Below are positions 33,199 through 62,954 of a DNA stretch of 64,000 nucleotides, piece after piece. The notes under the pieces are model-generated. The model did no database searches and was not told the origin of the DNA. It saw only the letters and a program-made list of their open reading frames with translations. Each line of letters starts with the position of its first letter. The stretch's first letter is position 1. The stretch lies in the NCBI RefSeq assembly GCF_057098645.1, contig NZ_CM169472.1; one strand, written 5' to 3'. Position numbers and translations under genes: made by a program.

Positions 33199-33864
33199 TT
33201 AATGCAGGCAGCACTGCTTAAATTTCTTACCACTACCGCACGGGCAAGGATCGTTACGCCCCGGTTTCTCTTCTGCTTTGATCGGTTGCTGAACAGCTTT
33301 TTCCTGCGGATGCGCCATCCAGTACGCATGTAGATCAAGCGCCGCCAGTCGAATGGCATCTACGCTCTCTTCAAACGCTTCTGGCGACATCTTCTCTACC
33401 CGCTCGAAGTTTTCCTCAGTACCGTGCAGCGCAATCGCCTCCAGCGCTGGTTTTAACGAATCGGGCAATGTTGACCAGTCAGAAAGTGCCACGCCCCGCA
33501 TATAGCCAAAGCACCACTCCTCAACAATCGTCAGCTCGCTGCCATCAACTTCTCGCAAGCCGAATAACGGCTCAAACTGCTCCGGGAATTCGTTCAGACG
33601 CTCTGCGGTATCGGCCATATGTTGAAAAGCCAGGTTCATAAAGCGCGTCATCTCTTTCTCTGACGCCCAGCGCGGCACATAGTCAGCCCCACCCCACACG
33701 GCAACCAGCCACTGTGCCGGTTCAATCTCTTGCGGAGAACTCAACACCGCCGTCAATAAACCGTCCAGCTCCGCCACATCAAGGATGGCGTGGTCAGTGT
33801 TGTATTTGGTCAGAATATCGTCCAGCCATTCCAACTCACTTTCGTTTAACGGTCCCGTTTTCAT
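33199..33864 (-). CDS. yecA: UPF0149 family protein YecA (C-terminal SEC-C motif)
   Basis: 221-aa ORF ending ...[20 protein letters not shown]. Confidence 0.9.
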
Positions 33865-34462: not shown

Positions 34463-36334
34463 TTACAGCGTAAATTCGTTTCCGGGTCCAGTGCCCAGGT
34501 TATTTACTATATAAGCATCTATTCTCTGATCATTAAATCGCCAGCAGTCAATGGCAAGATCCATCAGCAGGCGTTGCCTTGATGTGATGCTTTCCGCAGA
34601 CCAGTCTTGATATTCATATCCATATTTCAGCTTAAAGCGATTTAATGCAGTGTTATCACCAATTGAGTACTGGGAGTGGAGTAATCGAGTCATGATGATT
34701 TCAGAGTTTAAATATTCTGTTTGTTTTTTCAAAAACCAGTCTTCACTCAAATCATTGCAGTTATTGACAGACTGGTTAATTGTACCCTCTAATAATGTTA
34801 CATTACCAAGTTTGTAGAGATAACTTGTTCGATTTACATCAGAGAACTCCCCGTTTTCAGGGGCGTTTCGTACCGTCTGAGGAAGAATATGCTCAATTTG
34901 CATCTGCTGAATAGCCTGCTGGCTCTTTTCCGGAAAACCGCAAAGATGGCGGATATGATTCTCTAATCTACCCAATACATAACGTTGGCGATACTGAGGC
35001 GTAAAATTATAGTCATTAATAATTGAGAATCGTTCTTTAAATTCATCTAAACGCTCCACAACAAAAGGTATAAGTGTTGCTGAAACAACATTTGCAACCT
35101 CTGCTTTCGTTTTCACATCCCGAAGCTTTACAGCCCATTGAGTAAAGCGTTGCTCATATGTCTTCGATTGAATAGCCATTGTATTTGTAAAGAATAAAAA
35201 GCTCTCAAGTTGAGCACCTAAGAAATCCATTACATCATCTGAACAACTAATATCCAATGCCATTAGTAAAACCAAATGCTGACGTGAGCGATATTTATTA
35301 ATATATCCAATGTTACTTACGTTTGGAAAACGGATATTTTCACGCCAGTAGGCTGCTTCATTTGTTGCATTGACCAGGTTAGCGTATCGTTCTGATAATT
35401 TTTCCAATTCTTTGACGAGGACCATAGGGCGTGTCTTATACTGCAACGACAGTTCCCCCTCAGCTGAAATGATCCATTTATATATATCATCTTCACGCAA
35501 AATCCCGTGATGATATCGTGCCATCAGAAAGTAACGTAAAAAACGAAGCGGGTTATCACTTTCGCCGCAAGACTCAAGGTTATTAGTGATGGATTTCCAT
35601 GTTGTCTTTATTGCCGAAAACTGTTCTTCTTTTATCTGACTGAAAATCAAATTTTTAACAAGATCCATAGCATTAAGGCTGGCACCACGCTGATTGATCG
35701 TTTCGAAGATCTTTAATGCGCTACTTAAGTTCTCTGATTCAATGACAACCAGCTCAACTTTTGTTAAAAAAAAGCGAGCGAAGGAGATTAATCCATTCAA
35801 GCTATCTTGCAATTGGTATTTAAGATAATCACGAATGTGATCATACGCGTCAGCCATTTTTTTTACTGAAGCTGTTTCCGCAAAGGTATTGGTTTGCCCT
35901 TCAATTAACCGCGAAATAAATCCTCGACTTTCTTCATATTGAAGATCTAGTCTAATTAGATTTTCCTCACTATTAATATCATAACTAGAGAGCCATTCCT
36001 CAATAGTTTTCAGATATTCCAGCCCTTTTTTGTCAAGTGTATCCAATCTATCTTTTAATAGATCCCGTAAGGCACACATAGTGATGACAATAGTGGTCAA
36101 CCGCTGCTGTCCGTCAATAACATCATGCTTTTCCCCATTCTTTACGATAATAACAGAACCGAGAAAATAACCATTTTGATCTTTCTGCTCTGGTTGGTAT
36201 TCATTGTCTAAATCCATGAGAAACTGTTCAACCTGATCATCAACCTTCCATACATACTCACGTTGATAATCGGGAACTAAAAAATAATAATCGCTTAATT
36301 TTGATATATTTTTTACATCGGCTTCTATTTTCAT
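34463..36334 (-). CDS. GmrSD-family type IV restriction endonuclease-like protein (DUF262 N-terminal, DUF1524 C-terminal)
   Basis: 623-aa ORF; N-terminal DGQQR motif typical of DUF262; C-terminal EHILPQ ... N-rich motif typical of DUF1524 His-Me finger. Confidence 0.65.
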   Translation of the reverse strand: MKIEADVKNISKLSDYYFLVPDYQREYVWKVDDQVEQFLMDLDNEYQPEQKDQNGYFLGSVIIVKNGEKHDVIDGQQRLTTIVITMCALRDLLKDRLDTLDKKGLEYLKTIEEWLSSYDINSEENLIRLDLQYEESRGFISRLIEGQTNTFAETASVKKMADAYDHIRDYLKYQLQDSLNGLISFARFFLTKVELVVIESENLSSALKIFETINQRGASLNAMDLVKNLIFSQIKEEQFSAIKTTWKSITNNLESCGESDNPLRFLRYFLMARYHHGILREDDIYKWIISAEGELSLQYKTRPMVLVKELEKLSERYANLVNATNEAAYWRENIRFPNVSNIGYINKYRSRQHLVLLMALDISCSDDVMDFLGAQLESFLFFTNTMAIQSKTYEQRFTQWAVKLRDVKTKAEVANVVSATLIPFVVERLDEFKERFSIINDYNFTPQYRQRYVLGRLENHIRHLCGFPEKSQQAIQQMQIEHILPQTVRNAPENGEFSDVNRTSYLYKLGNVTLLEGTINQSVNNCNDLSEDWFLKKQTEYLNSEIIMTRLLHSQYSIGDNTALNRFKLKYGYEYQDWSAESITSRQRLLMDLAIDCWRFNDQRIDAYIVNNLGTGPGNEFTL

Positions 36335-36391: not shown

Positions 36392-36901
36392 TCACAAACG
36401 AACAGGAGAGTAGACCCCTTCTACATTACAGCTATCTCCGTCATCAAAAATCAACTCTCCTGCACTATAACCATCCATGGATAAAATAGCCTTTTCATTG
36501 AGAGCCAGACTAAGGCACATTGATGTTTTTATCATATTATCTGTACCATAAATCTCATACCAGTTATCTTCTTTTTTAGAAACCTCTACCTCATACTTTC
36601 CTGAGTCAATATTAACCATGCTAAATACATTATCTACATCACATGAATCCTTGCTATCTGTAAAAATTATTTTTTTATCATAGCCATCAACCCTGAGATA
36701 TGCGTCTTCAGAATAAGCATAAACATAACAATATTTAGTATTAACAAAAGAATCCTTCCCAGTAATTTGATATAAATTACTATCTTTTCTTGTGACATTT
36801 ATTTCCCACGTATTGGCATGAACATAACCTGGAGCCAAAAACAGGGTTAATAAGAACGGTCCAATCTTGGCTTTAAAGTTTCTAACAATTTTGAAAAACA
36901 T
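36392..36901 (-). CDS. secreted protein of unknown function with two tandem Cys-containing repeat domains
   Basis: 169-aa ORF; signal peptide MFFKIVRNFKAKIGPFLLTLFLAPGYVHA; internal repeat NLYQITGKDS...CDVDNVFSMV / NWYEIYGTDN...CNVEGVYSPV. Confidence 0.55.
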   Translation of the reverse strand: MFFKIVRNFKAKIGPFLLTLFLAPGYVHANTWEINVTRKDSNLYQITGKDSFVNTKYCYVYAYSEDAYLRVDGYDKKIIFTDSKDSCDVDNVFSMVNIDSGKYEVEVSKKEDNWYEIYGTDNMIKTSMCLSLALNEKAILSMDGYSAGELIFDDGDSCNVEGVYSPVRL

Positions 36902-36952: not shown

Positions 36953-37708
36953 CTACATATCAGCCAACAACATCCCAGCCATGCCATCCAGCCGTTTCTT
37001 GACCTTTTCCCACCCAGGCATAACCTGCCCCATCAGGCGGTAAAACTCTTCACTGTGGTTGTGCTCAGCAACATGGCATAACTCATGTAGCAAAACATAA
37101 TCGATACATTCTGAGGATGCCTTAACCAGCCATGGATTCAGGGTCAGACAGCCTTTTGCTGAACAGTTGCCCCATTGCGTTTGCATCGCCCGCAGACGTA
37201 TCGGAGGACGCTCACTGACCCAAAGGGTCTGCGGAATCAGTAAATCAAGCCTGCGCTGAAAAACATCTCTGGCACGTTCCCGATACCATTCAGCCAGCAA
37301 GGCTTTAATCTTTTCTGCCGATTTGTGTCTGACAGTCACTTCCAGACGCCCACGCAACATTTTCACTCGTTGCGGCACAGTAGCGTCTTCTGTCACTTTC
37401 AACTGATATTGCTTACCGAGATAATAATGGCTTTCTCCGCTGACATACTGACGCGGAACAATGTGTGTCTGTTGCTCCCTGAAATCACGCAGTTGCTGGT
37501 ATATCCAGCGCCCACGTTTTTTCAGCGCAGACAATACCTCGTGCTCCGGTGTTTCAGGCGGTACAGAGGCCACAACCCGGCAGTCCGGATAAACCTTGAT
37601 GAGCACCCTGCCCTTTACGACCTGACGCGGAACACACTGTACGACGATGACCTCATCACCATAGACAATGCGTAACGCTTTCATTGATGGCGATTCTTTT
37701 TCACTCAT
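36953..37708 (-). CDS. DUF45/YgjP-like zinc metallohydrolase
   Basis: 251-aa ORF with HELCHVAEHNHSEEF (HExxH...NHS); 4-nt overlap with hsdR stop. Confidence 0.6.
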   Translation of the reverse strand: MSEKESPSMKALRIVYGDEVIVVQCVPRQVVKGRVLIKVYPDCRVVASVPPETPEHEVLSALKKRGRWIYQQLRDFREQQTHIVPRQYVSGESHYYLGKQYQLKVTEDATVPQRVKMLRGRLEVTVRHKSAEKIKALLAEWYRERARDVFQRRLDLLIPQTLWVSERPPIRLRAMQTQWGNCSAKGCLTLNPWLVKASSECIDYVLLHELCHVAEHNHSEEFYRLMGQVMPGWEKVKKRLDGMAGMLLADM

Positions 37709-40700
37709 GATTTCATCAAACCAACGCGCAGTATCTGGATGATGGTTTCCACAATACGGTTAACCTGATTCATTCCGGCACCAATTTCCCGGCAGGCCGT
37801 AAACAGCAGTGGTAGCAGACTTGTCTTAACGACTTTCTCAATGTCCTGGGGGTTCAGGGAGTTTTCTGCCACCGCTTTGACGATAATGTTGTCCACGTCA
37901 AAAGCCAGCTTCGTCCACTTATCCTGCACTTGAACGTCTTTTACCACAAAAACCTCAGGTAGCTCTTTTTTAAATACACCGTAATATGCCTGAGCATGCT
38001 TGTTTACCGCCAAAGCATCCGGGATATCACTGAGCTTACGGGCTTTAACCTGTTCTTCAAACTCACGGAATAAGAGGTACTGCTTAAGTGGATGGTCGAA
38101 CAGTTTTTCAGCCTCTTCGATTGCCATACGCAGGAGTCTGGAAAAGGCCTCCTGAGCATACGGATCATCACGCAGCTCCTGCTCAATCATCTTCGTCACA
38201 CGGGTTTTAATGATGTCGGTTTCATTGCGGGTTTTATTGTTATCCCACTCTTCGGGTTTTTCGCTCTTGCCCATTTTACCGACTTCATACACGCCATCCG
38301 GTTCACGAACCTCAACGCCGGTAACATGCTTATCCAGCAATTTTTTCACCTGCTCAGCGTAGTCGTCATAATTGACCTGCTCTCCACTTACCTGCATCGC
38401 CCACTGGCGAAGGCTGGACATCTGTTTTACGGTTTCTTTATAGAGATTTCGGTCTTGTTCCGTAAAGCTCTTGTCGGTGAAGAAGGTAGCGGACTGCAGT
38501 GCCACTTTCAGGCATCCGGCAAAGGCCGTTAACGCCTCGAAGAAATCATCACGGGTTTTCTGATGGATATCGACCATCTCTCCGTCACGTTCTTCCATTT
38601 TAGGCACCAGTACTGCACGTAACTGCTCAGTATCATTTTTGTTTTTAACACCGGCAAATATGGCCCACAACTGGTTATACAGATGCGGCAGACGTTTATA
38701 TTCAGAGCTCATGGCGCTGTACAGCCCGTCAATATCCTTGATGTCGTATCCTCCCTGGGTTCGGGAGGCGAGATCCTGATATTTGCCGATAGTCGTGTCC
38801 AGTTCAGCCAGAATGCCGCGATAATCAATCAGCAGGCCAAACTTTTTCAGTGGATGCAGACGGTTTACCCTTGCAATCGCCTGGATAAGGTTGTGGGACT
38901 TAAGCGGCTTGTCGATATACAGCACGGTATTCTTCGGTTCATCAAATCCGGTGAGCAGTTTATCAACGACGATCAGTAATTTGAGCTTATCATCAGTATC
39001 GAAACGACTGATGATATTGCGGGTATACACAGACTCATCCTGCATGCCGACGTTATCTTTCCACCATTTCGTCACTTCCGGCAGTTTGCTTTCATCCACC
39101 TCAGTATTCCCTTCCCGGGTATCCGGCGGGCTGATAACTACAGCTGACTCAAACAACCCGGCTTCATCAAGATACTTTTTATATTTGATGGCGGAAATCT
39201 TGCTGTCGCAGGCAAGTTGGCCTTTCAGCCCCTCATCAATATTCTTCGAGAAGTGTGTGGCGATATCGAGTGCGATCAGCCGGATGCGGTCATCTGCACT
39301 GTAGACCTCACCTTTACGGGCATATTTACGTTTAAGGTCGGCTTTTTGCGCTTCGCTTAACCCATCGGTAATACGGTCAAACCAGGCATCTATTGCCCGA
39401 TCGTTAACCTCAAGGTCGGGAATACGTTCTTCATACAGCAAAGGTGTAACGGCTTTATCTTCTACCGCTCGCTGCATGGTATAAGCGTGGACAATCGGCC
39501 CGAATTTATTGGTGGTCTTATCTTCTTTTAGCAATGGCGTACCGGTGAATGCCACAAAGGCGGCGTTCGGCAGTGCCAGTTTCATTCGCACATGGTTCTC
39601 ACCCCCCTGGCTGCGGTGTCCTTCATCAATCAGAACGATGATGTCGGGGCTGGTATTGACGCATTCAGGCAATTTTGTCGCTGAGTTAAATTTCTGGATA
39701 AGGGTAAAGATTATACGTTCTTTACCAGAGCCAATCTGCTGTGCCAGCTTCTGACCTGAGGTCGCCATCGCTTTGGCCTTATCATCCTTCCCTGCCAGTT
39801 CGCCACCAGAGACAAAAGTGCCGCTGAGCTGCCCTTCAAGGTCCACGCGGTCCGTCACCACCACAATACGACACTGCTTCAGGCTGTCATGAAGGATCAG
39901 CGCCTTGCTGAGGAATACCATGGTGTAAGATTTACCTGACCTCGTGGTATGCCAGATCACCCCACCTTCCCTGCCCCCGTCTGGTCTGCGGGTACTGATG
40001 CGTTCCAGCAGTCTTTTTATCCCGAACACCTGCTGATAGCGGGCAACAATTTTTCCGGTTTTTTTATCAAACAGGGTGAAGAAGCGGGTCATCTCCAGCA
40101 GACGTTCCGGTGAAAGCAGACTGATGAGCAGCTTATCCTGCCCGCTGACTGCCAGTTCCCCCCCATCGATTAACTGTTGATACCATTTGAGATCGACTGA
40201 AGGACGATGATCAAACAACGCATGAATTTGTTCAGTCGATAACTGATGGTTGCGCAGCGCATACATCTGCGGATCGGTAATATCTTCTTCGCGCCATGCC
40301 GCCCAGAATTTCATTGGCGTATGGCATGTACCGTAGCGCCCGTCATGACCGTTAATCGAAAGTAATAACTGGCTGTAGACAAACAGCTGCGGGATTTCAT
40401 CGTTGAACTGGTTGCGGATACTCTGGGATATCCCCTCGTCAATGGTTGGCCCTTTCTTGCCATGACCAGCCGGGCTTTTCGCTTCAATAACAGCCAGCGG
40501 GATACCATTAACAAAGCAGACAATATCCGGTCTGCGGGTTTCAACACCGCCTGACCGCAATACCGTAAATTCTTCAGTAAAATGGAACTGGTTATTTTCC
40601 GGATGTTCCCAGTCGATCAGCGCAATGGTGGGGTTGACCTTCTTGCCATCGACAAATTCGGTGACGGCGATACCGTAGAGCAGATGGTTATACATCCGTT

Positions 40701-40989
40701 CATTGGCTTTGAGCAGCCCTTCATTCAGCGCCGGAGAACAGACCTGTGATATCAGGTTATCCAGTGCTTTTTCCGATAACTGGCAGTTTTTGCCACCCGC
40801 CATAAAGGAACGCTTCGACAGCTCTTCACGCAGAACCGGACGCAGCACCACCTCATCCTGTTTATAGCCCCGGTAATCCATAATCTGTTTCGGAGATAAA
40901 AACGTCCAGCCGAGGCTGGTCAGTAACGTCAGTGCCGGGATTTTGGCGCTGTATTCTTCCTGGAATTTAGGTTGGTAGTGCTTATCCAC
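37705..40989 (-). CDS. hsdR: type I restriction enzyme R subunit
   Basis: 1094-aa ORF; N-terminal PD-(D/E)xK-like IEAK motif, SF2 helicase motifs including DEGHRS. Confidence 0.85.
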   Translation of the reverse strand: MDKHYQPKFQEEYSAKIPALTLLTSLGWTFLSPKQIMDYRGYKQDEVVLRPVLREELSKRSFMAGGKNCQLSEKALDNLISQVCSPALNEGLLKANERMYNHLLYGIAVTEFVDGKKVNPTIALIDWEHPENNQFHFTEEFTVLRSGGVETRRPDIVCFVNGIPLAVIEAKSPAGHGKKGPTIDEGISQSIRNQFNDEIPQLFVYSQLLLSINGHDGRYGTCHTPMKFWAAWREEDITDPQMYALRNHQLSTEQIHALFDHRPSVDLKWYQQLIDGGELAVSGQDKLLISLLSPERLLEMTRFFTLFDKKTGKIVARYQQVFGIKRLLERISTRRPDGGREGGVIWHTTRSGKSYTMVFLSKALILHDSLKQCRIVVVTDRVDLEGQLSGTFVSGGELAGKDDKAKAMATSGQKLAQQIGSGKERIIFTLIQKFNSATKLPECVNTSPDIIVLIDEGHRSQGGENHVRMKLALPNAAFVAFTGTPLLKEDKTTNKFGPIVHAYTMQRAVEDKAVTPLLYEERIPDLEVNDRAIDAWFDRITDGLSEAQKADLKRKYARKGEVYSADDRIRLIALDIATHFSKNIDEGLKGQLACDSKISAIKYKKYLDEAGLFESAVVISPPDTREGNTEVDESKLPEVTKWWKDNVGMQDESVYTRNIISRFDTDDKLKLLIVVDKLLTGFDEPKNTVLYIDKPLKSHNLIQAIARVNRLHPLKKFGLLIDYRGILAELDTTIGKYQDLASRTQGGYDIKDIDGLYSAMSSEYKRLPHLYNQLWAIFAGVKNKNDTEQLRAVLVPKMEERDGEMVDIHQKTRDDFFEALTAFAGCLKVALQSATFFTDKSFTEQDRNLYKETVKQMSSLRQWAMQVSGEQVNYDDYAEQVKKLLDKHVTGVEVREPDGVYEVGKMGKSEKPEEWDNNKTRNETDIIKTRVTKMIEQELRDDPYAQEAFSRLLRMAIEEAEKLFDHPLKQYLLFREFEEQVKARKLSDIPDALAVNKHAQAYYGVFKKELPEVFVVKDVQVQDKWTKLAFDVDNIIVKAVAENSLNPQDIEKVVKTSLLPLLFTACREIGAGMNQVNRIVETIIQILRVGLMKS

Positions 40990-41058
40990 CCGGTAATCCT
41001 TCTTGGCTAAGAGGTGAAACTGTATGTCCTTACGGACATACTCAAAATGAACGAAGAC

Positions 41059-42843
41059 TTATGATGAAAAGAACGGCGAGTCCCGATAAAGGCGATTGTA
41101 CTTGACCTGTTCTGTTTCGCCCTTGTTTACATTACCAAATTTCTCCTGATGCGTCGTACAGCAGGAACCACAGGATGCACAAATAAATCGTCCTTCTGAA
41201 CATTTTTCATGCAAATCCCTGGCGTCAATTATTTCGCTGCATTTGTAACCAATACAGTGATTAATGTAATGCCCGATACCAAACTGTTCGCACGAATGAC
41301 TGGCACATTTAAAGACGGTCAGGCGATACGCGGCCTGGAAAGGTTTTTTCACAAATCCTTTCGACTTTGTATCCCAGACGCTGACTTCCACACGAGCATA
41401 TTTCATATCTGGAACCATCAGCACCCCACAACTTCGGCAATGCAAGCGGGAATGTAATTCTCTGATACGATTGAAATACCCAGCCAGTTTAATTGGGAAA
41501 TCCCGCTTAGAAGGTTCGCCTGCAATCAGATAGGTCATGCCATAGTGGGCAAGCCAGTCATAAATAGTGAAGTCGATGTAATCCCGACTGAGGTCGGGTA
41601 GTACCTGCGGATCATGGCAGATTTTCGAACGACAAAGGAATTTTTTCTCTATCGTTCCGTCAGGTTGTTTTGCATTCCAGTGAAATGCCTCACAGGATAA
41701 TTTTAAATTCCGGGAACGAATTTTCAATGAGCTACACTGTGGGAACAATTTGAAAACAGAAGGATGGCTTACCGGGATTTTACCCGACAACACTCCCTGC
41801 CATATCTCATGCAGAATAATACTCAGAACGGACTGTTCATCGTTACGCCCAATCAGCGGTAACAATTTACTCAGAATAAAGTATTCAGGGTCAGAAGAAA
41901 TTTCAGTATTCGACTCAATATCATTAACAAAACTGAAATCTTTCCTGAACATCTTCTGTTTAATCAAATACTTATTGACAAAAGGACTAATCACGGAATG
42001 TTTATAAAATTGCTCTCTCGATGAGAATTTCTGCTGATAGGCATCACGGACAAATGGTTGTATATCCATTTTATTTTTCGTGAAACTACGTCGAACAAAA
42101 TTCTCTATATCATCATGCCGATGTTCAAGAATCCGCTCGCTGCTTATACAATCGTAAAATGCCAGGTAGAGAATAGCACTTATAGATATATGGCTGAGTA
42201 ATTCATTGATGATGTCCGATGTTGAAGCCCCCTGGCAATCCGTAGCCGCAGAACACCTTTTCACCCAAACAGCGAACTGATCAATGTTATTATCGATAAA
42301 TGACGAAGGCATGACTGCAGGAGATATTTGTTGTGCGGTCAAATCATCAAAATTCTTATCAGAGGCGAAAAGTGCAAACTGGTTATCGTAGTTACGTGAT
42401 TTTAAAAATAGCGGCAAGACTTTTGTAGCAGCTATATCACTGGTAACTAACCGAATTATAGCCCTTTCGCCAAAGGACTGAGTGAGAAAATTAATAACGC
42501 AGTCACGATAACGCCAACGAGCGAAATCAACGCCCTCCTCAATAATAGCCCGGAGATATTCAATAAGGAGCTCAGCCGTCTCCTCATCTGTTTTATCAAG
42601 AATGTGAACATTAAAAGCCGTAGGCTTACCATTTTTACCTGTACCTTCCCTGAACAGCACCGGTGCATTGTCTGCGGGTGTATAGTTCCGGCTTATCTCA
42701 TTCTTATGAAAAAACAGCTCATTACCATTCTCTGATAAGAGAAAGCCAAAGTTATTCTCCCGATCCGTTTTGCTGTTGTAGCCTCCGAACCAGAGAACAT
42801 TTCCCATGTACCACCGGGAACGATCCAGATTGTTCACTGCCAT
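41059..42843 (-). CDS. protein of unknown function: N-terminal cold-shock-like domain, C-terminal Cys/His-rich putative zinc-ribbon region
   Basis: Start chosen at MAVNNLDR with RBS GAAGGGGG 7 nt upstream (594 aa); WFGGYNSKTDRENNFGFL resembles the CSD KWFN..KGFGFI core; C-terminal clusters CRSCG, CASHSC, CASCGSCC. Confidence 0.55.
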   Translation of the reverse strand: MAVNNLDRSRWYMGNVLWFGGYNSKTDRENNFGFLLSENGNELFFHKNEISRNYTPADNAPVLFREGTGKNGKPTAFNVHILDKTDEETAELLIEYLRAIIEEGVDFARWRYRDCVINFLTQSFGERAIIRLVTSDIAATKVLPLFLKSRNYDNQFALFASDKNFDDLTAQQISPAVMPSSFIDNNIDQFAVWVKRCSAATDCQGASTSDIINELLSHISISAILYLAFYDCISSERILEHRHDDIENFVRRSFTKNKMDIQPFVRDAYQQKFSSREQFYKHSVISPFVNKYLIKQKMFRKDFSFVNDIESNTEISSDPEYFILSKLLPLIGRNDEQSVLSIILHEIWQGVLSGKIPVSHPSVFKLFPQCSSLKIRSRNLKLSCEAFHWNAKQPDGTIEKKFLCRSKICHDPQVLPDLSRDYIDFTIYDWLAHYGMTYLIAGEPSKRDFPIKLAGYFNRIRELHSRLHCRSCGVLMVPDMKYARVEVSVWDTKSKGFVKKPFQAAYRLTVFKCASHSCEQFGIGHYINHCIGYKCSEIIDARDLHEKCSEGRFICASCGSCCTTHQEKFGNVNKGETEQVKYNRLYRDSPFFSS

Positions 42844-42865
42844 GAGCAAGCCCCCTTCCGCTTTG

Positions 42866-43549
42866 TCAGTGCAGGCAGCACTTTTTAAATTTTTTACCAC
42901 TGCCACACTGACACGGGTCATTACGACCGGGCAGTTTTTCTGCCCCCTTCACGGGAACAGGCCGGGATGATGCCTCTGACATTCTCACCGACAACCAGTG
43001 CTGGTAAAGCGCCAGTGCCGCAGGCTGAATGAGAGTAATACTCTGTTCAAATTGAACAGGTGACATTTTCTCAACCACTGGGAAGTTCTTTTCAATACCA
43101 TGAAGGGCTATCGCCTCCAGCGAGGGACGTAAGGCCTCTGGCAAGGCTGACCAGTCATCCAGAGACCGGCCTTTCATATACCCGAAACACCACTCTTCGA
43201 CGATGGTATATGTCTTCCCCTTCACCTCACGTCCATTGAAAATCGGTTCAAACTGTTCAGGGGCCTCATACAGGCAGCCAGCGATATCGTTCATATGCTG
43301 AAAACACAGCCCCACAAAACGCGTCATCTCTTTTTCAGTGGTCCAGCGAGGGTGGTAATCACCTCGCCCCCAGATAGCACTGAGCCAGGTATTAGGGGAA
43401 ATCGTATTCGGGCCAGAGACAATCGCCGTCAGAAAGCCATCCAGCTCAGAGAAACAGAGCACAGAGTCATCATTGCCGTATTTCATCAACACCTCTTCCA
43501 GCCAGTCGATTTCCCGGTCAATCAGCGGCCCGCTTTTCGTCAGTTTCAT
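42866..43549 (-). CDS. YecA-like UPF0149 protein with SEC-C motif (paralogue of chromosomal yecA)
   Basis: 227-aa ORF colinear with YecA at roughly 60 percent identity by eye, ends [24 protein letters not shown] overlap with hsdS stop; stop 22 nt before next gene. Confidence 0.7.
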   Translation of the reverse strand: MKLTKSGPLIDREIDWLEEVLMKYGNDDSVLCFSELDGFLTAIVSGPNTISPNTWLSAIWGRGDYHPRWTTEKEMTRFVGLCFQHMNDIAGCLYEAPEQFEPIFNGREVKGKTYTIVEEWCFGYMKGRSLDDWSALPEALRPSLEAIALHGIEKNFPVVEKMSPVQFEQSITLIQPAALALYQHWLSVRMSEASSRPVPVKGAEKLPGRNDPCQCGSGKKFKKCCLH

Positions 43550-44188
43550 TCGGCAACCGCCTCATCGACCTTAACACGACGTTTGCCAGTCAGTAGCTGT
43601 TGCATCAGGGCTTTTTTCTCGTCTTTCAGGCAGGCGAGTTTTTTCTCCAGCGTGGAGATTTCAGCGTCGGCAGCGGAAAGGACGGCGGCGATTTTTTGTT
43701 GTTCTTTGATATCTAATGGCAACCTAAAGTCTTTCTCTTTAAGTTCTCGCATATGTCTGCTGTAACCTAAATTCGGAATATCTGTATTTGAAAGAAGATA
43801 GTATCCAAGTTTTGGTTCAAGTATTTTGCTAGTTTTTATTACTTGCGTTCCATCAGCACCGGGACAAAACACAAACTCAATCCATTTGACGCATCTTGTA
43901 TGATCGCCAAAAACAATCACAGGCACGTCCGAATAAACCTCTAAATTATTACAGTACCCAGCAATTCGACTTTGCCCTTGATCGATTATAGGGATGGAAC
44001 CTGACTGTAAATAATCGGAAGATTTGACTTGCGCCGATTTTTTATTTGCAACAATGAAAGCATTATCAAACGTTAAATATACCCACTCCCCATTAAACCT
44101 CCCCCCATTCTCATCCAGCAAGCGTTTTTGTCCGGTAAGCAATTGCTGCATCAGGGCTTTTTTCTGTTGCTGGCTGTTGGTGAGAAGC

Positions 44189-45245
44189 GGCTTTGTTGAA
44201 TAAATCAGATTTCGGGTAAGTCTCCCCCGTAGCGGGTTGTGTTTTCAGGCAATACGCACGCTTTCAGGCATACCTGCTTTCGTCATTTTGTTCAGCGCTC
44301 GTACCAGGGCCATAGCCTCCGCAACCTGACCATCGTAGTCACGCAGCGTCAGTGAACCCCCGAACAGCTGTTTTACCCGGTACATCGCCGTTTCCGCTAT
44401 CGAGCGACGGTTGTAATCTGTTGTCCATTTCCACCGCGCATTACTCCCGGTCATTCGCTGATTAGCCACTGCACGGTTACGGTCTGCATATTCACCGGGC
44501 CAGTAGCCCGCACCTTTTCGGGGAGGGATAAGCGCGCTGATTTTCTTACGCCGCAGTTCATCGTGACATAGCCGGGTATCGTAAGCGCCATCGGCGGCGG
44601 CTGACCTGATTTTCCGGTGGGTTTGCCGGATTAACCCGGGGAAGGCCTCTGAGTCCGTAACGTTGTTCAGCGACAGGTCTGCACAGATGATTTCATGTGT
44701 TTTACTGTCAACGGCGAGATGCAGCTTACGCCAGATACGGCGGCGTTCCTGGCCATGCTTTTTGACTTTCCACTCGCCTTCACCGAAGACCTTCAGCCCG
44801 GTGGAATCAATCACCAGATGTGCGATTTCACCCCGGGTGGGCGTTTTGAAACTGACATTAACCGACTTTGCCCGCCTGCTGACACAGCTGTAATCCGGGC
44901 AGCGTAGCGGAACGTTCATCAGAGAAAAAATGGAATCAATAAAGCCCTGCGCAGCGCGCAGGGTCAGCCTGAATACGCGTTTAATGACCAGCACAGTCGT
45001 GATGGCAAGGTCAGAATAGCGCTGAGGTCTGCCTCGTGAAGAAGGTGTTGCTGACTCATACCAGGCCTGAATAGCTTCATCATCCAGCCAGAAAGTTATG
45101 GAGCCACGGTTGATGAGGGCTTTATTGTAGGTGGGCCAGTTGGTGATTTTGAACTTTTGCTTTGCCACGGAACGGTCTGCGTTGTCGGGAAGATGCGTGA
45201 TCTGATCCTTCAACTCAGCAAAAGTTCGATTTATTCAACAAAGCC
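44189..45245 (-). mobile_element. IS903-like element (IS5 family), copy 1, 1057 bp
   Basis: Terminal inverted repeats GGCTTTGTTGAATAAATC; 9-bp target duplication GTGAGAAGC at 44180-44188 and 45246-45254. Confidence 0.9.
44245..45213 (-). CDS. IS903-like transposase
   Basis: 322-aa ORF; recognised by eye as IS903/IS102-type transposase. Confidence 0.85.
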   Translation of the reverse strand: MKDQITHLPDNADRSVAKQKFKITNWPTYNKALINRGSITFWLDDEAIQAWYESATPSSRGRPQRYSDLAITTVLVIKRVFRLTLRAAQGFIDSIFSLMNVPLRCPDYSCVSRRAKSVNVSFKTPTRGEIAHLVIDSTGLKVFGEGEWKVKKHGQERRRIWRKLHLAVDSKTHEIICADLSLNNVTDSEAFPGLIRQTHRKIRSAAADGAYDTRLCHDELRRKKISALIPPRKGAGYWPGEYADRNRAVANQRMTGSNARWKWTTDYNRRSIAETAMYRVKQLFGGSLTLRDYDGQVAEAMALVRALNKMTKAGMPESVRIA

Positions 45246-45815
45246 GTGAGAAGCTTTTCCGTCACCGAAATCGCCTCATCCCAGGTTGACAGAATTTTAA
45301 CGATTCTCTTTTGTTCAGACAGTGGGGGGATATTAAATGGCCACTTAAACCAACTATCTAACTTAAAAATCATTTTCTCTATGTGCACACCAATGCTAGA
45401 GTGGAAGCAGGTTTGCTGGAAATATAGAGACTCCGATAGAAATTCCATATAAGGAAGATAAAAACCGGACTTCCCTGTAAGCACACAATATTCATTCGAT
45501 ACAATTGAGCCAGAAAGTTCTTTAGGTACAAGACCGCAAGCACCGTGCACAATTTGTCGTTTTGATATGAGAAAGTCGCCTTCTTTAATATAGAATTGAC
45601 TTTTTACGGAGATATCTTTTCCTTTAAGATGCTCACGTCTTATTACGCCACCTCTGGAGCGCTTTACTGTAACTAAGTCATACTCTTGATTATCTTGTAT
45701 ATATGCCTTTCTTGCCTCTATATTTAAGCACTTTTCTAATGATAACTTTTGCCATCCTGTAGGTAGCATTCCAAGGATCGGTTTTCCAGCTTTAACGCTC
45801 ACTGGGTAAAGCGAA

Positions 45816-47339
45816 TCACGAGCCATAACCCAACTCCTTCAAATACCCTGCCATCTCAACTTCCAGCTTCGCCAGTTCCACCTTCAGTTGCTCACGCTCT
45901 GCTCGCACCGCCACCAGGTCAATCTCATCCTCTTCTTCAAAGGTATCGACATAGCGCGGAATATTGAGGTTGTAATCGTTGTCCTGAATTTCCTTCAGGC
46001 TGGCAAGATAGGCGTATTTCTCGACGTTATCGCCATCACGGTAGGTCTTGACGATTTTCTTAATGTTTTCTTCGCTAAGCTGGTTCTGGTTTTTACCTGC
46101 CTTGAATTCACGGCTGGCATCGATAAACAGCACCTTGTCATCAACTTTCTACTTTTTGAAAATCAGAATCGCAGCCGGAATCCCCGTACCGTAGAACAGT
46201 TTTTCCGGCAGACCAATTACCGCATCCAGCAAATTTTCGTCGATCAGTTTCTGGCGAATTTTACCTTCGCTGGAGCCACGGAAAAGCACACCGTGTGGCA
46301 CAACTACGCCCATACGGCCAGTTCCCGGTTTCAGGGTTTCGATCATATGCGAGATAAAAGCGTAATCTCCTTTAGTCTTCGGCGGTACACCGCGACGAAA
46401 ACGGCCAAACTTATCGTTCTCGGCCTCGTCATGGCCCCACTTATCGAGGCTGAACGGTGGGTTAGCGGTCACGATATCAAACAGCATCAGGTCGCCATTT
46501 TTATCGAGCAGCTTCGGGTTACGAATGGTATCGCCCCACTCGATTTTATGGTTGTCTTCCCCGTGCAGGAACATATTCATTTTCGCCAGCGACCACGTAG
46601 AACCGATCGCTTCCTGACCGAACAAGGCATAGTTACGACTATCATGCCCGGAGACAATTTTACGCCCACACTTCATCAATAATGAACCGGAACCACAGGC
46701 TGGATCGCAGATGGTATCACCCGGTTGCGGATCGAGCAGTTCTGCAATCAGGTCCGAAACTTCCGGCGGGGTATAGAACTCCCCGGCTTTCTGCCCACCG
46801 CTGGCGGCAAAGTTTTTGATCAGGTATTCGTAAGCATTGCCGATAACGTCCAGCGTACCGACACGACTCGGCTTCAGGTTGAGATCTTCACCGGCGAAGT
46901 CTTCCAGTAGCTGACGCAGTATGGTGTTTTTCTGTTTTTCTTCGCCAAGACGATCGGTGTTAAACGAAATATCCTGGAACACGCTTTTCCCGGCATCTTT
47001 CAGTTTGGTTCCGTTGGCTTCTTCGATTGCATGCAGAGCCTGATCGATACGCTCACCGTTACCCAGCTCATGGCGGCGTTCGTACAGCGCATAAAAGCTG
47101 GCACTTTTTGGCAGTACAAAACGCTCGTTGGCCATCATCGCTTCAATCAGTTCCGGCGCATCGCCATACTGTTCTTTGTATTCGTCATAGTGATCCTGCC
47201 AGACATCTGAAATGTACTTGAGGAACAGCATGGTAAGGATAAAGTCTTTATAGGTATCAGCACTGATGGTGCCACGGAACGTATCACACGCGGCCCACAG
47301 GGCTTTGTTGATCGTGTCCTGACTGATTTTGTCGTTCAT
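45816..47339 (-). pseudogene. hsdM: type I R-M methyltransferase HsdM with in-frame amber codon at 46149-46151
   Basis: 396-codon ORF with N6-adenine MTase motifs (DPACGSG, NPPF) stops at ...AAILIFKK TAG, then continues in frame KVDDKVLFIDAS... for 105 more codons; overlaps hsdS start. Confidence 0.8.
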
Positions 47340-57823: not shown

Positions 57824-59974
57824 CTGTTCTCCAATGACTAGTCTAAAAACTAGTATTAAGACTATCACTTATTTAAGTGATACTGGTTGTCTGGAGATTC
57901 AGGGGGCCAGTCTAGATTACACCGCTTCTTGAAACGGGTGTGATTACAAAATGGCCCGGTATTATTAATATATATGCGCATTTCATTCGTGCGGATATCA
58001 CCTCCTTTGCCAATTTCTGGTCAGACTACAAAATTCTTCTGAAAGGAATACGCGGTACTGTCAGCAGCTTCAAAAATCGTTACGGTATCGATTTTGATGA
58101 ACAGCAGGAACGTCGCGTAAAGACTGAACAGATAATGTTTGACAAACGAACTTCCCCTCCGCGTTGCAGTAACGTAGCTTTCATCGATACACTGCTTATC
58201 ACTCCCGGGGGTATGGGTCTGGCTGAATGTGGTGAATTACTGGGTCTTCCCAAACTGACCATTCCTGCACCTTATTCCATAACCAATATGCGTGAATATC
58301 TTCTGGGCGACAGAGCAGGGTTTGAAGCCTATGCTCTGCGGGATGCCGAGATTGCGGTTCGTTATGCTTTACAGGTTCGCAATTTTTGCGCCCGGGAGCT
58401 GATGATTGATCGTGTCCCCGCCACCATCGGGGCGATGGCAGTTTCACGGTTCACCAAAACACTTAAAGAAAACAATATGTCTCCTGAAGTCTGCCTTGGG
58501 ACACACATTAAAACCCGTGAACTCTGGCTCACGGAGAAACAGGCATTCCGGACGATTAAAAACCCCGCCAGTGTTCCTTCAAGAGAGCTGTTTGAAACGT
58601 TCCCGATCAACTGTTACCACGGCGGACGCAATGAGTGTTTTATGATGGGGGTTACACCGTCTGATCACTGGTATGACTACGATCTGGCTGGAGCGTATAC
58701 CACCGGGCTATTAGATATCCTCATACCCGATTACGGAAACATCCGCCTCAGTAAAAATCCGGACGATTACTGTGGGCATGTAATGGGATTTGCGTTTGTC
58801 ACATTTCAGTTCCCGGAATCAGTTCCCTATCCCAGCCTGCCGGTTCGGACCGATCAATATGGGTTATTCTTTCCATTAAGTGGCGAATCATGGGCAACGG
58901 CACCTGAAATCGAACTTGCTCTGTCGCTCGGGGCAGAGATGACGATCCATAATGGGATCATCGTCCCCTGGATCTGTGACACCTCCCCACATAACAGCGA
59001 ATCAACATCGGTGTTTCTTCCCTTTGTTCAACAGGTCCGTGAGAACCGTAATCGCCATATTAAAGGTTCTCTGGAGGAGAAATTCTGGAAAGAAATTGGC
59101 AACTCGCTTTATGGCAAACTTGCTCAGGGCCTTCGCGCCAAAACCGCCTTTGATACTGCCCGTGGATTAAACAGATCCCTCCCACCATCATCGGTTACTC
59201 AGCCATTCTTTGCTGCGCATGTGACGGGATTTATCCGCGCCGTTGTCGGGGAACTCATGAATGCTTTGCCTTCTGATTCATCGGTTGTCAGCGTCACAAC
59301 CGATGGCTTTTTGACAAATTGCCCACTTAACAAGATAAACATGAGCGGTCCACTGTCTTCCCGCTTCCAGTCGCTGTGCGATATTGTTGATCCGGGTTCA
59401 TCAATGTTGACATGTAAGCATGAGGTCAGCCAGCTTATCGCCATGAAAACCCGGGGGCAGTTAACCTATAGAGCTATTCAGGGAAAACCTGTTGTTCATG
59501 CCAGGGCTGGCGTCAAACCTCCTGCCGATATTCCACGCAGTGACTATAACGACTATATGGTAGATCTTTACCTTAATCGTTTACCCGGTCAGACGTTATC
59601 CCGAAGTACGTTGATATCAACGCGTGAGATGTGGCTGTCGGAAAGCGATCTGGTATCCCGGGAACAGGATATCCGTCTTAATCTGGAATTCGATTTCAAA
59701 CGCCAGCCCGTACAGCCCGCCATGAATGAAGGGCATTTACTGATGTCTTCCCGCCCATGGGATAATATGGAAGAGGCTCTGCAGCAACGCTCTCTTTTCG
59801 ACGACTGGCGGCAAACGCATACACTGAAGACCCTGGCTGACTGGGATGACTGGTGTGATTTTCTCTATTGCCGGACGGTGTTTTCTGATATGAAACTAAA
59901 AGTCGGAAGCAAACGTAGTGATGATATTTTAGTCAGACTATTTCTCCGGGCGCTGACTCAGTGCCAATGGGGGC

Positions 59975-60523
59975 TTATGCTGAAAGATAAAAAAAGTTAT
60001 TCCTGTAAAGAGGTTGCTGAATGGCTGACGTCAGAAGGCTATTCAGTAACATGTCAAAAAGCACCTGCTGGATCTCCCGGGCCCGAAGGTCGCAGTAACG
60101 TATCTTCCCCAGACGAGGTTCAATGTATTGCGTGAAACGCTGAACATCCTTATCCCAGGACTTTTTATGGCGTTTGATGAACGGAACATAGGTCTGGTGA
60201 AAAAACTCACTAAGTGTTGGCATCGCACGATAATTATCGCGTTCTGCTTTAGGGTCATTTCCCAGTGCAATCGCCTCCTTGTGACGACGAGCTATCTGAC
60301 GGGCTGTCCCCACATCGATTTCAGGGAATCTGCCAATACTGATACTTTTTTTGGTACCGTGGAATGTGTAGCGCAGGAGGAAACGTTTGTTACCCGTTCG
60401 ACCTGAGAGACATTTGAGGCCTATGACCTCGGTATCTGATACCTCAAGCTCTGTAGATCGGGTATCTGTGTTTGCCGGAAGGGCTTTGATGGATGAATTG
60501 GTGAATCGGAAGGATTTTTGCAT
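59975..60523 (-). pseudogene. N-terminal fragment of a P4-type tyrosine integrase (arm-binding domain), truncated
   Basis: MQKSFRFTNSSIKALP ... GRFPEIDVGTARQIARRHKEAIALGNDP resembles integrase N-terminal domain; no catalytic domain follows; overlaps piPolB 3-prime end on the opposite strand. Confidence 0.5.
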
Positions 60524-62578: not shown

Positions 62579-62708
62579 CAGGCACAAAAAAACCACCCGG
62601 AGGTGGTTTCACGACACTGCTTATTGCTTTGATTTTATTCTTATCTTTCCCATGGTACCCGGAGCGGGACTTGAACCCGCACAGCGCGAACGCCGAGGGA
62701 TTTTAAAT
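62579..62708. repeat. attR: 130-bp direct repeat (leuZ 3-prime part plus downstream flank)
   Basis: Matches 33986-34115 with 1 mismatch. Confidence 0.9.
62584..62609 (-). terminator. rho-independent terminator downstream of leuZ (copy within attR)
   Basis: aaaaaaaccaccc gga ggtggttt. Confidence 0.6.
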
Positions 62709-62739
62709 CCCTTGTGTCTACCGATTCCACCATCCGGGC
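62653..62739 (-). tRNA. leuZ: tRNA-Leu
   Basis: 87-nt sequence, reverse complement GCCCGGATGGTGGAATCGGTAGACACAAGGGATTTAAAATCCC...GGGTACCA. Confidence 0.9.
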
Positions 62740-62751
62740 TCGGGAAGAAAG

Positions 62752-62825
62752 TGGAGGCGCGTTCCGGAGTCGAACCGGACTAGACGGATTTGCAATCCGC
62801 TACATAACCGCTTTGTTAACGCGCC
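62752..62825 (-). tRNA. cysT: tRNA-Cys
   Basis: 74-nt sequence, reverse complement GGCGCGTTAACAAAGCGGTTATGTAGCGGATTGCAAATCCGTC...CTCCA. Confidence 0.9.
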
Positions 62826-62878
62826 AAATTCTTCAGGCCTTTCAGCCAGACATCCGCTGACGCCGATGTCTTTTAAAC

Positions 62879-62954
<76 letters not shown>

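What the first reader, a model, noticed from the sequence alone, without database searches (positions are those of the whole stretch)
41059..43549. Two-gene cassette (YecA-like SEC-C protein + 594-aa cold-shock-domain/Cys-rich protein) embedded between hsdS and hsdR
The YecA-like gene overlaps the hsdS stop (ATGA), and its own stop lies 22 nt before the ATG of the 594-aa gene, which has a strong RBS. hsdR follows 70 bp later. The cassette therefore sits in the slot where anticodon nucleases PrrC/RloC are inserted in other type I R-M loci, yet neither protein resembles PrrC. A nucleic-acid-binding CSD-like N-terminus plus a C-terminal Cys/His cluster suggests an R-M-guarded effector. I do not recognise this pair as a described defence system.
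Basis: partly seen in the sequence, partly recalled or inferred. Interest (0 to 1): 0.85.

Follow-up and report, generated by a model that had tools for sequence, protein, structure and literature searches.

The report
Two independent passengers in a restriction operon
Two genes sit between hsdS and hsdR of a mobile E. coli restriction-modification operon, but they are not a pair: one is a routine YecA-like accessory of this operon family, and the other is an uncharacterised cold-shock-domain plus zinc-cluster protein that also turns up alone next to other anti-phage systems, so it is a testable candidate defence gene.

Summary
On the minus strand, a 227-aa YecA-like gene (42866-43549) overlaps the hsdS stop (ATGA). 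A 594-aa gene (41059-42843) follows 22 nt later behind a GGAAGGGGG Shine-Dalgarno sequence. hsdR starts 69 nt after that.

The "two-gene system guarded by R-M" reading is mostly not supported.
- The YecA-like gene is a regular member of this operon family (hsdM-hsdS-yecA*-hsdR-M48). About 43% of matching E. coli genomes have it without the 594-aa gene. It matches the untested PADLOC candidate PDC-S12.
- The 594-aa gene is a separate insertion. Its diverged homologues (63% identity or less) never have a YecA-like neighbour. They sit alone beside or inside BREX, next to Mokosh, in an ICE variable region, or in integrase islands.
- The gene stays intact where the R-M is broken, as in this window (hsdM nonsense codon, IS5 in hsdS).

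The protein has three parts: a cold-shock domain, a variable helical region, and a roughly 200-aa domain with 17 invariant Cys/His. That last domain has no Pfam, PADLOC, NCBIfam, PHROG or PDB match.

Best reading: a stand-alone candidate defence gene that binds single-stranded nucleic acid, riding in the R-M operon. Function is untested. Interest is moderate.

The parts
45816..47339 (-). hsdM, type I R-M methyltransferase subunit, inactivated by an in-frame stop at 46149-46151
   Evidence: The ORFs 46149-47339 and 45816-46133 are in the same frame. RefSeq marks the gene 'internal stop' in a sister strain. The intact 507-aa form is in L002.
43546..45826 (-). hsdS specificity subunit, split into a 5' part (45215-45826) and a 3' part (43546-44151) by an IS5-family insertion whose transposase ORF is at 44245-45213
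   Evidence: Both halves match a single 1215-nt hsdS in L001 and L002. It is 100% identical to a second IS5 copy at 60742-61710.
42866..43549 (-). YecA-like gene (227 aa; UPF0149 domain plus C-terminal SEC-C metal-binding motif). Its start overlaps the hsdS stop (ATGA).
   Evidence: Pfam match. PADLOC PDC-S12 at 8.5e-98. NCBIfam PRK10396 at 350 bits. It is 58% identical to the chromosomal YecA at 33199-33864. It is present without the CSD gene in L039, L040 and L046.
42844..42865 (-). 22-nt spacer carrying the Shine-Dalgarno sequence GGAAGGGGG for the 594-aa gene
   Evidence: Read directly from the sequence.
41059..42843 (-). 594-aa gene for the CSD / helical / poly-Cys protein; an independently mobile single-gene module
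   Evidence: Homologue family. Alignment. Structure model with pLDDT 85. No match in PADLOC, NCBIfam or PHROGs. dN/dS 0.14-0.21.
42601..42813 (-). Cold-shock (OB-fold) domain, residues 11-81. The RNP1-like FGF and RNP2-like FFH motifs are kept, and there is a 7-residue insertion (GGxNxKTxREN) in the beta1-beta2 loop.
41746..42585 (-). Variable all-helical middle region, residues 87-366
   Evidence: Secondary structure of the model. Low conservation. Partly repeated in the 865-1012-aa long forms.
41134..41745 (-). Conserved Cys/His-rich C-terminal domain, residues 367-570. Enough ligands for about four Zn sites, plus invariant E385, R405, D448, N458, R459, Y482, R484, Y506, R507, T509, D540 and R542.
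41022..41041 (-). Perfect 8-bp hairpin (GUAUGUCC-GUAA-GGACAUAC) in the 69-nt gap before hsdR. No U-tract follows it.
   Evidence: Fold of the 81-nt region gives -22.1 kcal/mol, z = -2.4. The terminator scan does not call it.
37705..40989 (-). hsdR restriction subunit (1094 aa, intact, GTG start)
   Evidence: ORF. RefSeq annotation of identical loci.
36953..37708 (-). M48/YgjP-like (SprT-like) metallopeptidase gene overlapping the hsdR stop; the conserved last gene of the operon
   Evidence: ORF. Annotation. Present in every cassette variant.

Best explanation
The locus is a mobile type I R-M operon, hsdM-hsdS-yecA*-[594-aa gene]-hsdR-M48. In this window it is carried by a pipolin inserted at tRNA-Leu. 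The two embedded genes have separate histories and probably separate functions.

(1) The YecA-like gene is a standard accessory of this operon family. It is translationally coupled to hsdS and is present with or without the 594-aa gene. It is a xenologue of the housekeeping chaperone YecA and most likely acts as a protein-binding adaptor for the R-M complex. That role is inferred.

(2) The 594-aa gene is an independently mobile single-gene module. In one lineage it was inserted at the yecA*/hsdR junction, where it is probably co-transcribed with the operon. I infer that it is a stand-alone anti-phage or anti-MGE protein.
- Its cold-shock domain would bind single-stranded nucleic acid, most plausibly ssDNA or replication intermediates. 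Some relatives that share the C-terminal domain carry HARP or HRDC domains, though I did not establish whether these replace the CSD.
- The conserved four-zinc Cys-rich domain would be the invariant working part. It could be a further nucleic-acid clamp that blocks replication, in the manner of the replication inhibitor CspD, or an unrecognised enzyme.

Shown: gene order, domain content, family distribution, independence of the two genes, purifying selection. Inferred: defence function, ssDNA target, mode of action.
For: **Independence of the two genes.**
- yecA* occurs without the CSD gene, with a 52-nt yecA*-hsdR gap, in L039, L040 and L046. About 13 of 30 evenly sampled E. coli hits are of this kind.
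- CSD homologues at 63% identity or less have no yecA* neighbour in any locus checked.
- The CSD gene is intact while yecA* is frameshifted in Citrobacter or truncated by an IS in Pantoea.

**Defence and MGE context of lone homologues.**
- 60-63 nt downstream of BREX brxL in two Rhodobacterales.
- 56 nt upstream of pglZ-brxL in Pseudohongiella.
- Next to Mokosh MkoA/MkoB in both Vibrio lentus and Pantoea, with an Mrr-like REase also nearby in V. lentus.
- In an ICE variable region between tra genes.
- In integrase/AlpA islands in V. cholerae and P. fluorescens.
- Near WYL, LeoA-like and Aga-REase genes.
- On 132 plasmids, 128 of them conjugative.

**Variable partner of conserved systems.** The BREX proteins of L005 and L016 match almost perfectly (PglZ scores 1831 bits over 831 aa), while the adjacent CSD proteins are only 63% identical.

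**Architecture.**
- Cold-shock domain.
- Invariant Cys/His array.
- Among 82 distant relatives with the C-terminal domain, Pfam finds CSD in 14-27, HARP in 5-7 and HRDC in 3-4, and no enzymatic domain.

**Precedents.** A CSD protein serves as a retron Se72 / type V effector; the NCBIfam and PADLOC CSD_V models are hit by relatives. CspD as an ssDNA-binding replication inhibitor is from my own knowledge (Yamanaka et al. 2001).

**Other.** No convincing internal promoter or terminator was found.
Against: - There is no experimental evidence of any kind.
- No catalytic domain or motif was identified.
- The C-terminal model is only of moderate confidence (pLDDT 74 alone; 57-96 by 10-residue block within the full-length model), so a missed fold match is possible.
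- Several homologues sit among ordinary genes with no recognisable defence neighbour: Erwinia, Aeromonas and Pararhodobacter.
- Only about 13 independent contexts were inspected, by hand, with no genome-wide enrichment statistic.
- PADLOC v2 did not include this family among its 145 embedding-derived candidates.
- An RNA target is equally compatible with a cold-shock domain.
Confidence: 0.5

Rival explanations
1. PrrC-like guard model. The 594-aa protein is a latent toxic effector held in check by the type I R-M complex. It is released when a phage anti-restriction factor disables the R-M.
For: It occupies the same slot as prrC, between hsdS and hsdR on the same strand (prr locus order from my own knowledge). 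It is probably co-transcribed with the operon. Within Enterobacterales it is found only inside this cassette.
Against: Diverged homologues occur with no type I R-M at all, in BREX, Mokosh, ICE and integrase-island contexts. The gene is intact and under purifying selection where the R-M is inactivated: this window has an hsdM stop and IS5 in hsdS, and Pantoea retains only hsd remnants. It has no similarity to PrrC or RloC. PrrC, by contrast, is found almost exclusively embedded in type I R-M (10.1101/2024.01.29.577857, section 10).
Confidence: 0.1
2. An obligate two-component system. YecA* acts as sensor or chaperone and the 594-aa protein as effector, and the two work together.
For: The spacing is a tight 22 nt. 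Gene order is conserved in every copy of the CSD-containing cassette, including a diverged one where YecA* is 77% and CSD 90% identical, and in 132 plasmids.
Against: Each gene is common without the other (26-28, 34, 104, 105). yecA* is broken while the CSD gene is intact in Citrobacter and Pantoea. There is no co-occurrence beyond one mobile cassette lineage.
Confidence: 0.1
3. The gene is not an immune gene. It could be a nucleic-acid-binding regulator or RNA chaperone that controls expression of the flanking operon (hsdR, BREX), or an MGE maintenance or establishment factor that handles ssDNA during transfer.
For: A cold-shock domain plus zinc ribbons with no catalytic domain fits a binder or regulator. 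It lies immediately upstream of hsdR and pglZ, or downstream of brxL. It is frequent on conjugative plasmids and in an ICE. Some homologues lie among housekeeping genes.
Against: The same operon family is complete without it. At 594 to more than 1200 aa, with a rapidly diverging helical region, it is atypical for an operon regulator. It is associated with four unrelated defence system types.
Confidence: 0.2
4. The Cys-rich domain is a divergent His-Me (HNH-like) nuclease, and the protein cleaves ssDNA or RNA that the cold-shock domain has bound.
For: The local pattern C513-x4-C518 ... N-H529-C ... D540-x-R542 ... C558-x2-C561-C-x2-H565, with predicted strand-strand-helix elements, loosely recalls Cys-flanked HNH motifs. 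This is my own reading of the sequence.
Confidence: 0.1

Closest known systems
PrrC / RloC anticodon nucleases embedded in type I R-M (EcoprrI locus)
   Same: The genomic slot is identical: between hsdS and hsdR, on the same strand, probably co-transcribed.
   Different: There is no sequence similarity and no NTPase or anticodon-nuclease domain. The family is not restricted to type I R-M. The gene persists intact where the R-M is dead.
PADLOC candidate PDC-S12 (Payne et al., 'guilt-by-embedding', bioRxiv 10.1101/2024.01.29.577857)
   Same: The YecA-like protein matches the model end to end at 8.5e-98, and it is embedded in a type I R-M, which is how the candidate was defined. The pipolin study lists Type I RM and PDC-S12 as frequent cargo (PMC11551731).
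   Different: PDC-S12 is untested. Its HMM is not specific to the embedded clade: the housekeeping YecA in this same window scores higher (366 against 325 bits). It covers only the YecA-like gene, not the 594-aa gene.
Housekeeping YecA (AscA), UPF0149 + SecA-like metal-binding domain
   Same: Same two-domain architecture. It passes the NCBIfam equivalog cutoff. The C-terminal CxCx8CC-LH motif is kept.
   Different: It is only 58% identical to the chromosomal yecA that is also present at 33199-33864. It forms a separate clade (68-100% identity), followed by a gap down to the orthologues at 59% or less. It is always placed downstream of hsdS.
Small cold-shock proteins: CspA family, CspD, and the retron Se72 / type V CSD effector
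   Same: OB-fold cold-shock domain with RNP1-like and RNP2-like aromatic motifs. CspD and the retron effector are precedents for toxic or defensive CSD proteins.
   Different: This is a 594-aa multidomain protein with an insertion in the beta1-beta2 loop, a helical region and a novel poly-Cys domain. No retron RT or ncRNA is nearby.
Other single-gene defence genes embedded in R-M or BREX (Payne et al. HEC/PDC sets; BrxU/GmrSD)
   Same: A lone gene nested in or abutting multi-gene systems of several types, carried on MGEs.
   Different: There is no homology to any PADLOC v2 model. No recognisable effector domain is present.

Membership tests
PrrC/RloC anticodon nuclease | Gene located between hsdS and hsdR of a type I R-M operon | tested here: met
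   Gene order is read. The same order is seen in intact cassettes.
PrrC/RloC anticodon nuclease | Sequence homology to PrrC/RloC (ABC-ATPase-like N-domain plus C-terminal ACNase domain) | tested here: not met
   No PADLOC family matches the 594-aa protein at E<=1, and the YecA-like protein gives no PrrC or RloC hit. Pfam finds only CSD, or UPF0149 + SEC-C.
PrrC/RloC anticodon nuclease | Near-exclusive linkage of the family to type I R-M | tested here: not met
   Homologues occur in BREX, Mokosh, ICE and integrase-island contexts without hsd genes.
PADLOC PDC-S12 (YecA-like gene) | Full-length match to the PDC-S12 HMM | tested here: met
   8.5e-98, covering residues 5-227 against model positions 2-218 of 218. 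The model also matches housekeeping YecA, with a higher score.
PADLOC PDC-S12 (YecA-like gene) | Anti-phage activity | not testable with these tools
   The source paper lists PDCs as predictions only (10.1101/2024.01.29.577857, section 10).
YecA orthologue (housekeeping UPF0149/SEC-C chaperone) | NCBIfam PRK10396 equivalog score above the cutoff | tested here: met
   350.5 bits against a cutoff of 149.
YecA orthologue (housekeeping UPF0149/SEC-C chaperone) | Is the single chromosomal orthologue at the conserved tyrP-yecA position | tested here: not met
   The true yecA is at 33199-33864 and is 58% identical. The embedded clade is separated from the orthologues by an identity gap.
Cold-shock protein (CspA family) | CSD/OB fold with RNP1 and RNP2 motifs | tested here: met
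Cold-shock protein (CspA family) | Single-domain protein of about 70 aa | tested here: not met
   The protein is 594 aa with two further regions.
Retron type V (CSD effector) | Adjacent reverse transcriptase and msr/msd ncRNA | tested here: not met
   The neighbours are hsdS, yecA* and hsdR. No RT ORF lies within the operon.
HNH / His-Me finger nuclease | Detectable beta-beta-alpha-metal fold or HNH profile match | tested here: not met
Pipolin cargo | Located in an element with piPolB integrated at tRNA-Leu between pgsA and yecA | tested here: met
   piPolB is at 57940-60135, 99% identical to the annotated polymerase. tRNA-Leu is at 62653-62739. The site is as described in PMC11551731.

The most novel reading that the evidence does not exclude
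The 594-aa protein founds an undescribed class of single-protein immune effectors. A nucleic-acid-recognition head (CSD in this family; some relatives sharing the C-terminal domain carry HARP or HRDC) would detect single-stranded or forked replication intermediates of phages or plasmids. A previously unseen four-zinc domain, present in more than 800 representative proteins, would carry out the response. The gene travels as a second line of defence nested in R-M, BREX and Mokosh loci.
Probability: 0.3. Interest if true: 0.75.

Novelty: new member of a known kind. Interest (0 to 1): 0.5.

Why it matters
Genes nested inside R-M and BREX operons have repeatedly turned out to be new immune systems. 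This family is common in clinically relevant hosts: 198 of 5426 complete E. coli genomes and 129 Klebsiella plasmids carry it. It is absent from the defence catalogues I could search. Its conserved zinc-rich domain has no structural or profile match.

If it does defend, it would add a new effector or sensor domain. It would also extend the precedent of cold-shock domains in bacterial immunity beyond the small retron effector.

The analysis also corrects how the locus should be read. The YecA-like gene is part of the R-M operon family, and the PADLOC PDC-S12 model cannot tell it apart from housekeeping yecA. That matters for anyone counting 'PDC-S12' hits in genomes.

Tried and rejected
- **Homology to PrrC/RloC or any PADLOC, NCBIfam or PHROG family** for the 594-aa protein: none found.
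- **AFDB50 search** returned only family members annotated 'CSD domain-containing', plus one 'Thaumarchaeal output domain' protein. I could not follow that protein up, and no such Pfam hit appeared in 82 relatives.
- **A weak MIT-like profile hit** to VPS4 (E 0.5) was rejected as not significant.
- **An HNH-like reading** of the Cys/His pattern was rejected for lack of any profile or fold support.
- **Extra enzymatic domains in the 865-1280-aa relatives**: the extra length is repeated helical region or a second CSD.
- **Positive selection on the fast-diverging YecA-like gene** was rejected. Its dS is also high and omega is 0.08-0.14, so the pattern reflects a mosaic or older allele.
- **Own promoter or terminator** for the embedded genes: nothing above shuffle expectation for promoters, and no terminator between the genes.
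- **Phage-borne copies**: none.
- **Literature searches** for a description of the pair or of the CSD family found nothing.
- **Two non-CSD relatives** searched against PDB sequences gave nothing.
- **Three look-ups of distant relatives** mostly landed on contigs too short to be informative.
Full report
**1. What is in the sequence**

All relevant genes are on the minus strand. In 5' to 3' order they are as follows.
- hsdM, 47339-45816. It has an in-frame stop at 46149-46151.
- hsdS, 45826-43546. It is split by an IS5-family insertion whose transposase ORF is at 44245-45213.
- A 227-aa YecA-like gene, 43549-42866.
- A 594-aa gene, 42843-41059.
- hsdR, 40989-37705.
- An M48/YgjP-like metallopeptidase gene, 37708-36953.

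- The YecA-like ATG overlaps the hsdS TGA (ATGA).
- Twenty-two nucleotides, containing GGAAGGGGG, separate the YecA-like stop from the ATG of the 594-aa gene.
- The hsdR GTG start lies 69 nt after that gene's stop.

The longer 620-aa reading from ATG 42921 is used in some RefSeq records. The 594-aa start is the one shared with homologues. Both embedded genes are under purifying selection, with dN/dS of 0.08-0.21 against five enterobacterial copies.

**2. Where the window comes from**

The region is 100% identical to E. coli O145:H28 chromosomes. It lies in an island between the housekeeping yecA (33199-33864) and the tRNA-Leu/Cys/Gly cluster (62653-62954).

The island carries a primer-independent PolB at 57940-60135, which is 99% identical to the annotated polymerase. 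It is therefore a pipolin at the insertion site described in PMC11551731. That paper lists "Type 1 RM, PDC-S12" among frequent pipolin cargo.

The intact form of the operon is present in E. coli PapRG-06-5. The same six genes sit on conjugative IncF Klebsiella plasmids.

**3. The YecA-like gene**

It has a UPF0149 domain and a SEC-C motif. It passes the NCBIfam YecA equivalog cutoff and matches PADLOC candidate PDC-S12 at 8.5e-98.

PDC-S12 comes from a "guilt-by-embedding" screen of genes nested in BREX, DISARM and type I R-M systems. It has not been tested (10.1101/2024.01.29.577857).

The protein is 58% identical to the chromosomal YecA in the same window. It belongs to a distinct clade: members are 68-100% identical to it, and there is then a gap down to housekeeping YecA orthologues at 59% or less.

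The PDC-S12 HMM scores the housekeeping YecA higher than the embedded copy (366 against 325 bits). The model therefore does not discriminate between the two.

This gene is present in the same operon without the 594-aa gene.
- In E. coli PK8217 and SEC470 and in a metagenome contig, the order is hsdM-hsdS-yecA*-hsdR-M48, with only 52 nt between yecA* and hsdR.
- In an evenly spaced sample of the 485 matching E. coli records, 12 of 30 had both genes, 13 of 30 had yecA* only, and 4 of 30 had only a 210-nt remnant of the 594-aa gene.

Across cassette variants, identity to the window's proteins was as follows.

| Protein | Identity across variants |
|---|---|
| HsdM | 98-99.7% |
| HsdR | 94-99% |
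| M48 | 92-99.6% |
| YecA* | 76-98% (76-91% in the more diverged cassettes) |

YecA* also has a higher dS than its neighbours while omega stays at 0.08-0.14. This points to a mosaic or older allele, not positive selection.

I conclude that yecA* is a regular accessory gene of this R-M operon family and is translationally coupled to hsdS. Housekeeping YecA/AscA is reported as a chaperone whose metal-binding domain binds SecB and ribosomes (bioRxiv 10.1101/2020.07.21.215244 and 10.1101/613315, abstracts). A role as a protein-binding adaptor for the R-M complex is an inference from that.

**4. The 594-aa protein**

The protein has three regions.
- **Residues 87-366: helical region.** It is poorly conserved and is partly repeated in the 865-1012-aa homologues.
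- **Residues 367-570: conserved core.** The invariant Cys/His residues are C370, C384, C404, C409, C469, C472, C513, C518, H529, C530, C535, C548, C555, C558, C561, C562 and H565. That is enough for about four zinc sites. The invariant polar residues are E385, R405, D448, N458, R459, Y482, R484, Y506, R507, T509, D540 and R542.

The AlphaFold model has a mean pLDDT of 85.

An exhaustive profile search finds the domain in 831 representative proteins, 469 of them at E of 1e-10 or better. Among 82 distant relatives, Pfam detects CSD in 14-27, HARP in 5-7 and HRDC in 3-4. No enzymatic domain is found. Long relatives carry one or two N-terminal CSDs.

**5. Is it a pair with YecA*?**

No, not beyond one cassette lineage.

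The two genes occur together only in near-identical enterobacterial copies. These are E. coli, Klebsiella, Buttiauxella, Franconibacter, Citrobacter, Enterobacter and Intestinirhabdus, where the CSD protein is at least 91% identical. One somewhat older version has YecA* at 77% and CSD at 90% identity.

The CSD gene can outlast its neighbours.
- In Citrobacter braakii, yecA* appears frameshifted while the CSD gene is intact.
- In Pantoea, the CSD gene (85% identical) is intact among remnants of yecA*, hsdR and hsdM.

No homologue at 63% identity or less has a YecA-like or hsd neighbour. Their contexts are as follows.
- An ICE variable region between tra genes, next to a Fic gene, in Vibrio metschnikovii.
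- 60-63 nt downstream of BREX brxL in Tritonibacter and Cognatishimia. There the BREX proteins match almost perfectly but the CSD proteins are only 63% identical.
- 56 nt upstream of pglZ-brxL, after a vWA-domain gene, in Pseudohongiella.
- Between an Mrr-like REase and a Mokosh MkoA/MkoB system in Vibrio lentus. A Mokosh system is also adjacent in Pantoea.
- Integrase/AlpA islands in V. cholerae and P. fluorescens.
- Next to IS91, or near WYL, LeoA-like or Aga-REase genes.
- Ordinary-looking surroundings in Erwinia, Aeromonas and Pararhodobacter.

No phage genome carries the gene. It is on 132 plasmids, 128 of them predicted conjugative.

**6. Interpretation**

The "slot" resemblance to prrC is real but positional only. 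The PrrC-style guard model predicts exclusive linkage to type I R-M and dependence on an intact R-M. Neither is seen. In this window the R-M is already dead while the 594-aa gene, yecA* and hsdR remain intact.

The pattern fits a single-gene module that nests in or abuts defence operons of several unrelated types and travels on MGEs. That is the signature used to predict embedded defence genes.

For mechanism I commit, at moderate-to-low confidence, to the following.
- The cold-shock domain recognises single-stranded nucleic acid.
- Some relatives that share the C-terminal domain carry HARP (fork-binding) or HRDC domains. I could not place these domains within those proteins, so I cannot say they replace the CSD. 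Their presence still tilts the target towards ssDNA or replication intermediates rather than mRNA.
- The conserved zinc-rich domain is the working part. It could be an additional nucleic-acid clamp that blocks replication, by analogy with the ssDNA-binding replication inhibitor CspD (my own knowledge). It could also be an unrecognised enzyme.

Precedents for CSD proteins in defence exist in the retron Se72 / type V effector models. A regulatory or MGE-maintenance role cannot be excluded.

**7. Novelty and score**

The YecA-like gene is already catalogued as an untested candidate. The 594-aa family is, as far as the searchable catalogues and literature show, undescribed.

As a kind of thing, an accessory gene embedded in an R-M operon is well known, so I rate it a new member of a known kind. 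Its conserved domain has no detectable relative among solved structures or profile libraries. Interest is moderate (0.5): it is a clean, abundant and easily testable candidate, but there is no functional evidence and no mechanistic handle yet.

Noticed in passing
window 43546-47339: The host type I R-M is inactivated twice: an in-frame stop in hsdM at 46149-46151 and an IS5 insertion splitting hsdS (transposase ORF 44245-45213). hsdR, yecA*, the 594-aa gene and M48 stay intact. Sister O145 strains carry different IS3 lesions in the same operon.
   Followed up: partly
window 36953-37708: An M48/YgjP-like (SprT-like) metallopeptidase gene overlaps the hsdR stop. It is conserved as the last gene of every cassette variant seen. 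It has no PADLOC hit. It may be a further R-M accessory, for example controlling HsdR.
   Followed up: partly
window 34463-36334: A DUF262/GmrSD-like protein (623 aa) matches PADLOC HEC-06 at 1.3e-79 and Orf5/SspE-like models. It is a separate type IV-like defence gene just downstream of the R-M operon. It is preceded by a 169-aa hypothetical gene (36392-36901) that travels with it in several genera.
   Followed up: partly
window 33199-33864 versus 42866-43549: The PADLOC PDC-S12 model scores the housekeeping yecA higher (366 bits) than the R-M-embedded copy (325 bits). 'PDC-S12' calls in genome surveys may therefore largely be ordinary yecA.
   Followed up: yes
window 34100-62740: The whole island is a pipolin: piPolB at 57940-60135 (its true start is further upstream), tRNA-Leu attachment site at 62653-62739, and two 100% identical IS5 copies (44245-45213 and 60742-61710).
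   Followed up: partly
L005 8001-9740 versus L016 9998-11740: Two Rhodobacterales carry almost perfectly matching BREX proteins, but the CSD-family gene downstream of brxL is only 63% identical between them. The accessory gene is exchanged or evolves much faster than the system it is attached to.
   Followed up: partly
L047 12222-17791 and L057 10993-17504: A Mokosh type I system (MkoA, 1653 aa, plus MkoB) lies within about 2.5 kb of the CSD-family gene in both Pantoea and Vibrio lentus, even though the two CSD proteins are distant relatives (85% and 46% identical to the query, respectively). This could be a coincidence of defence islands or a recurrent association.
   Followed up: no
L006 12161-13481: In Pseudomonas fluorescens, a YchJ-like SEC-C protein and a 72-aa SEC-C-only protein lie 2.4-3.5 kb downstream of the CSD-family gene. 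They are probably unrelated core genes, but they are the only other SEC-C proteins seen near a family member.
   Followed up: no
window 41022-41041: A perfect 8-bp hairpin with a GUAA loop lies in the 69-nt gap between the 594-aa gene and hsdR, with no U-tract after it. This spacer replaces most of the 52-nt yecA*-hsdR spacer of cassettes that lack the gene, and only the hsdR ribosome-binding region is shared.
   Followed up: partly
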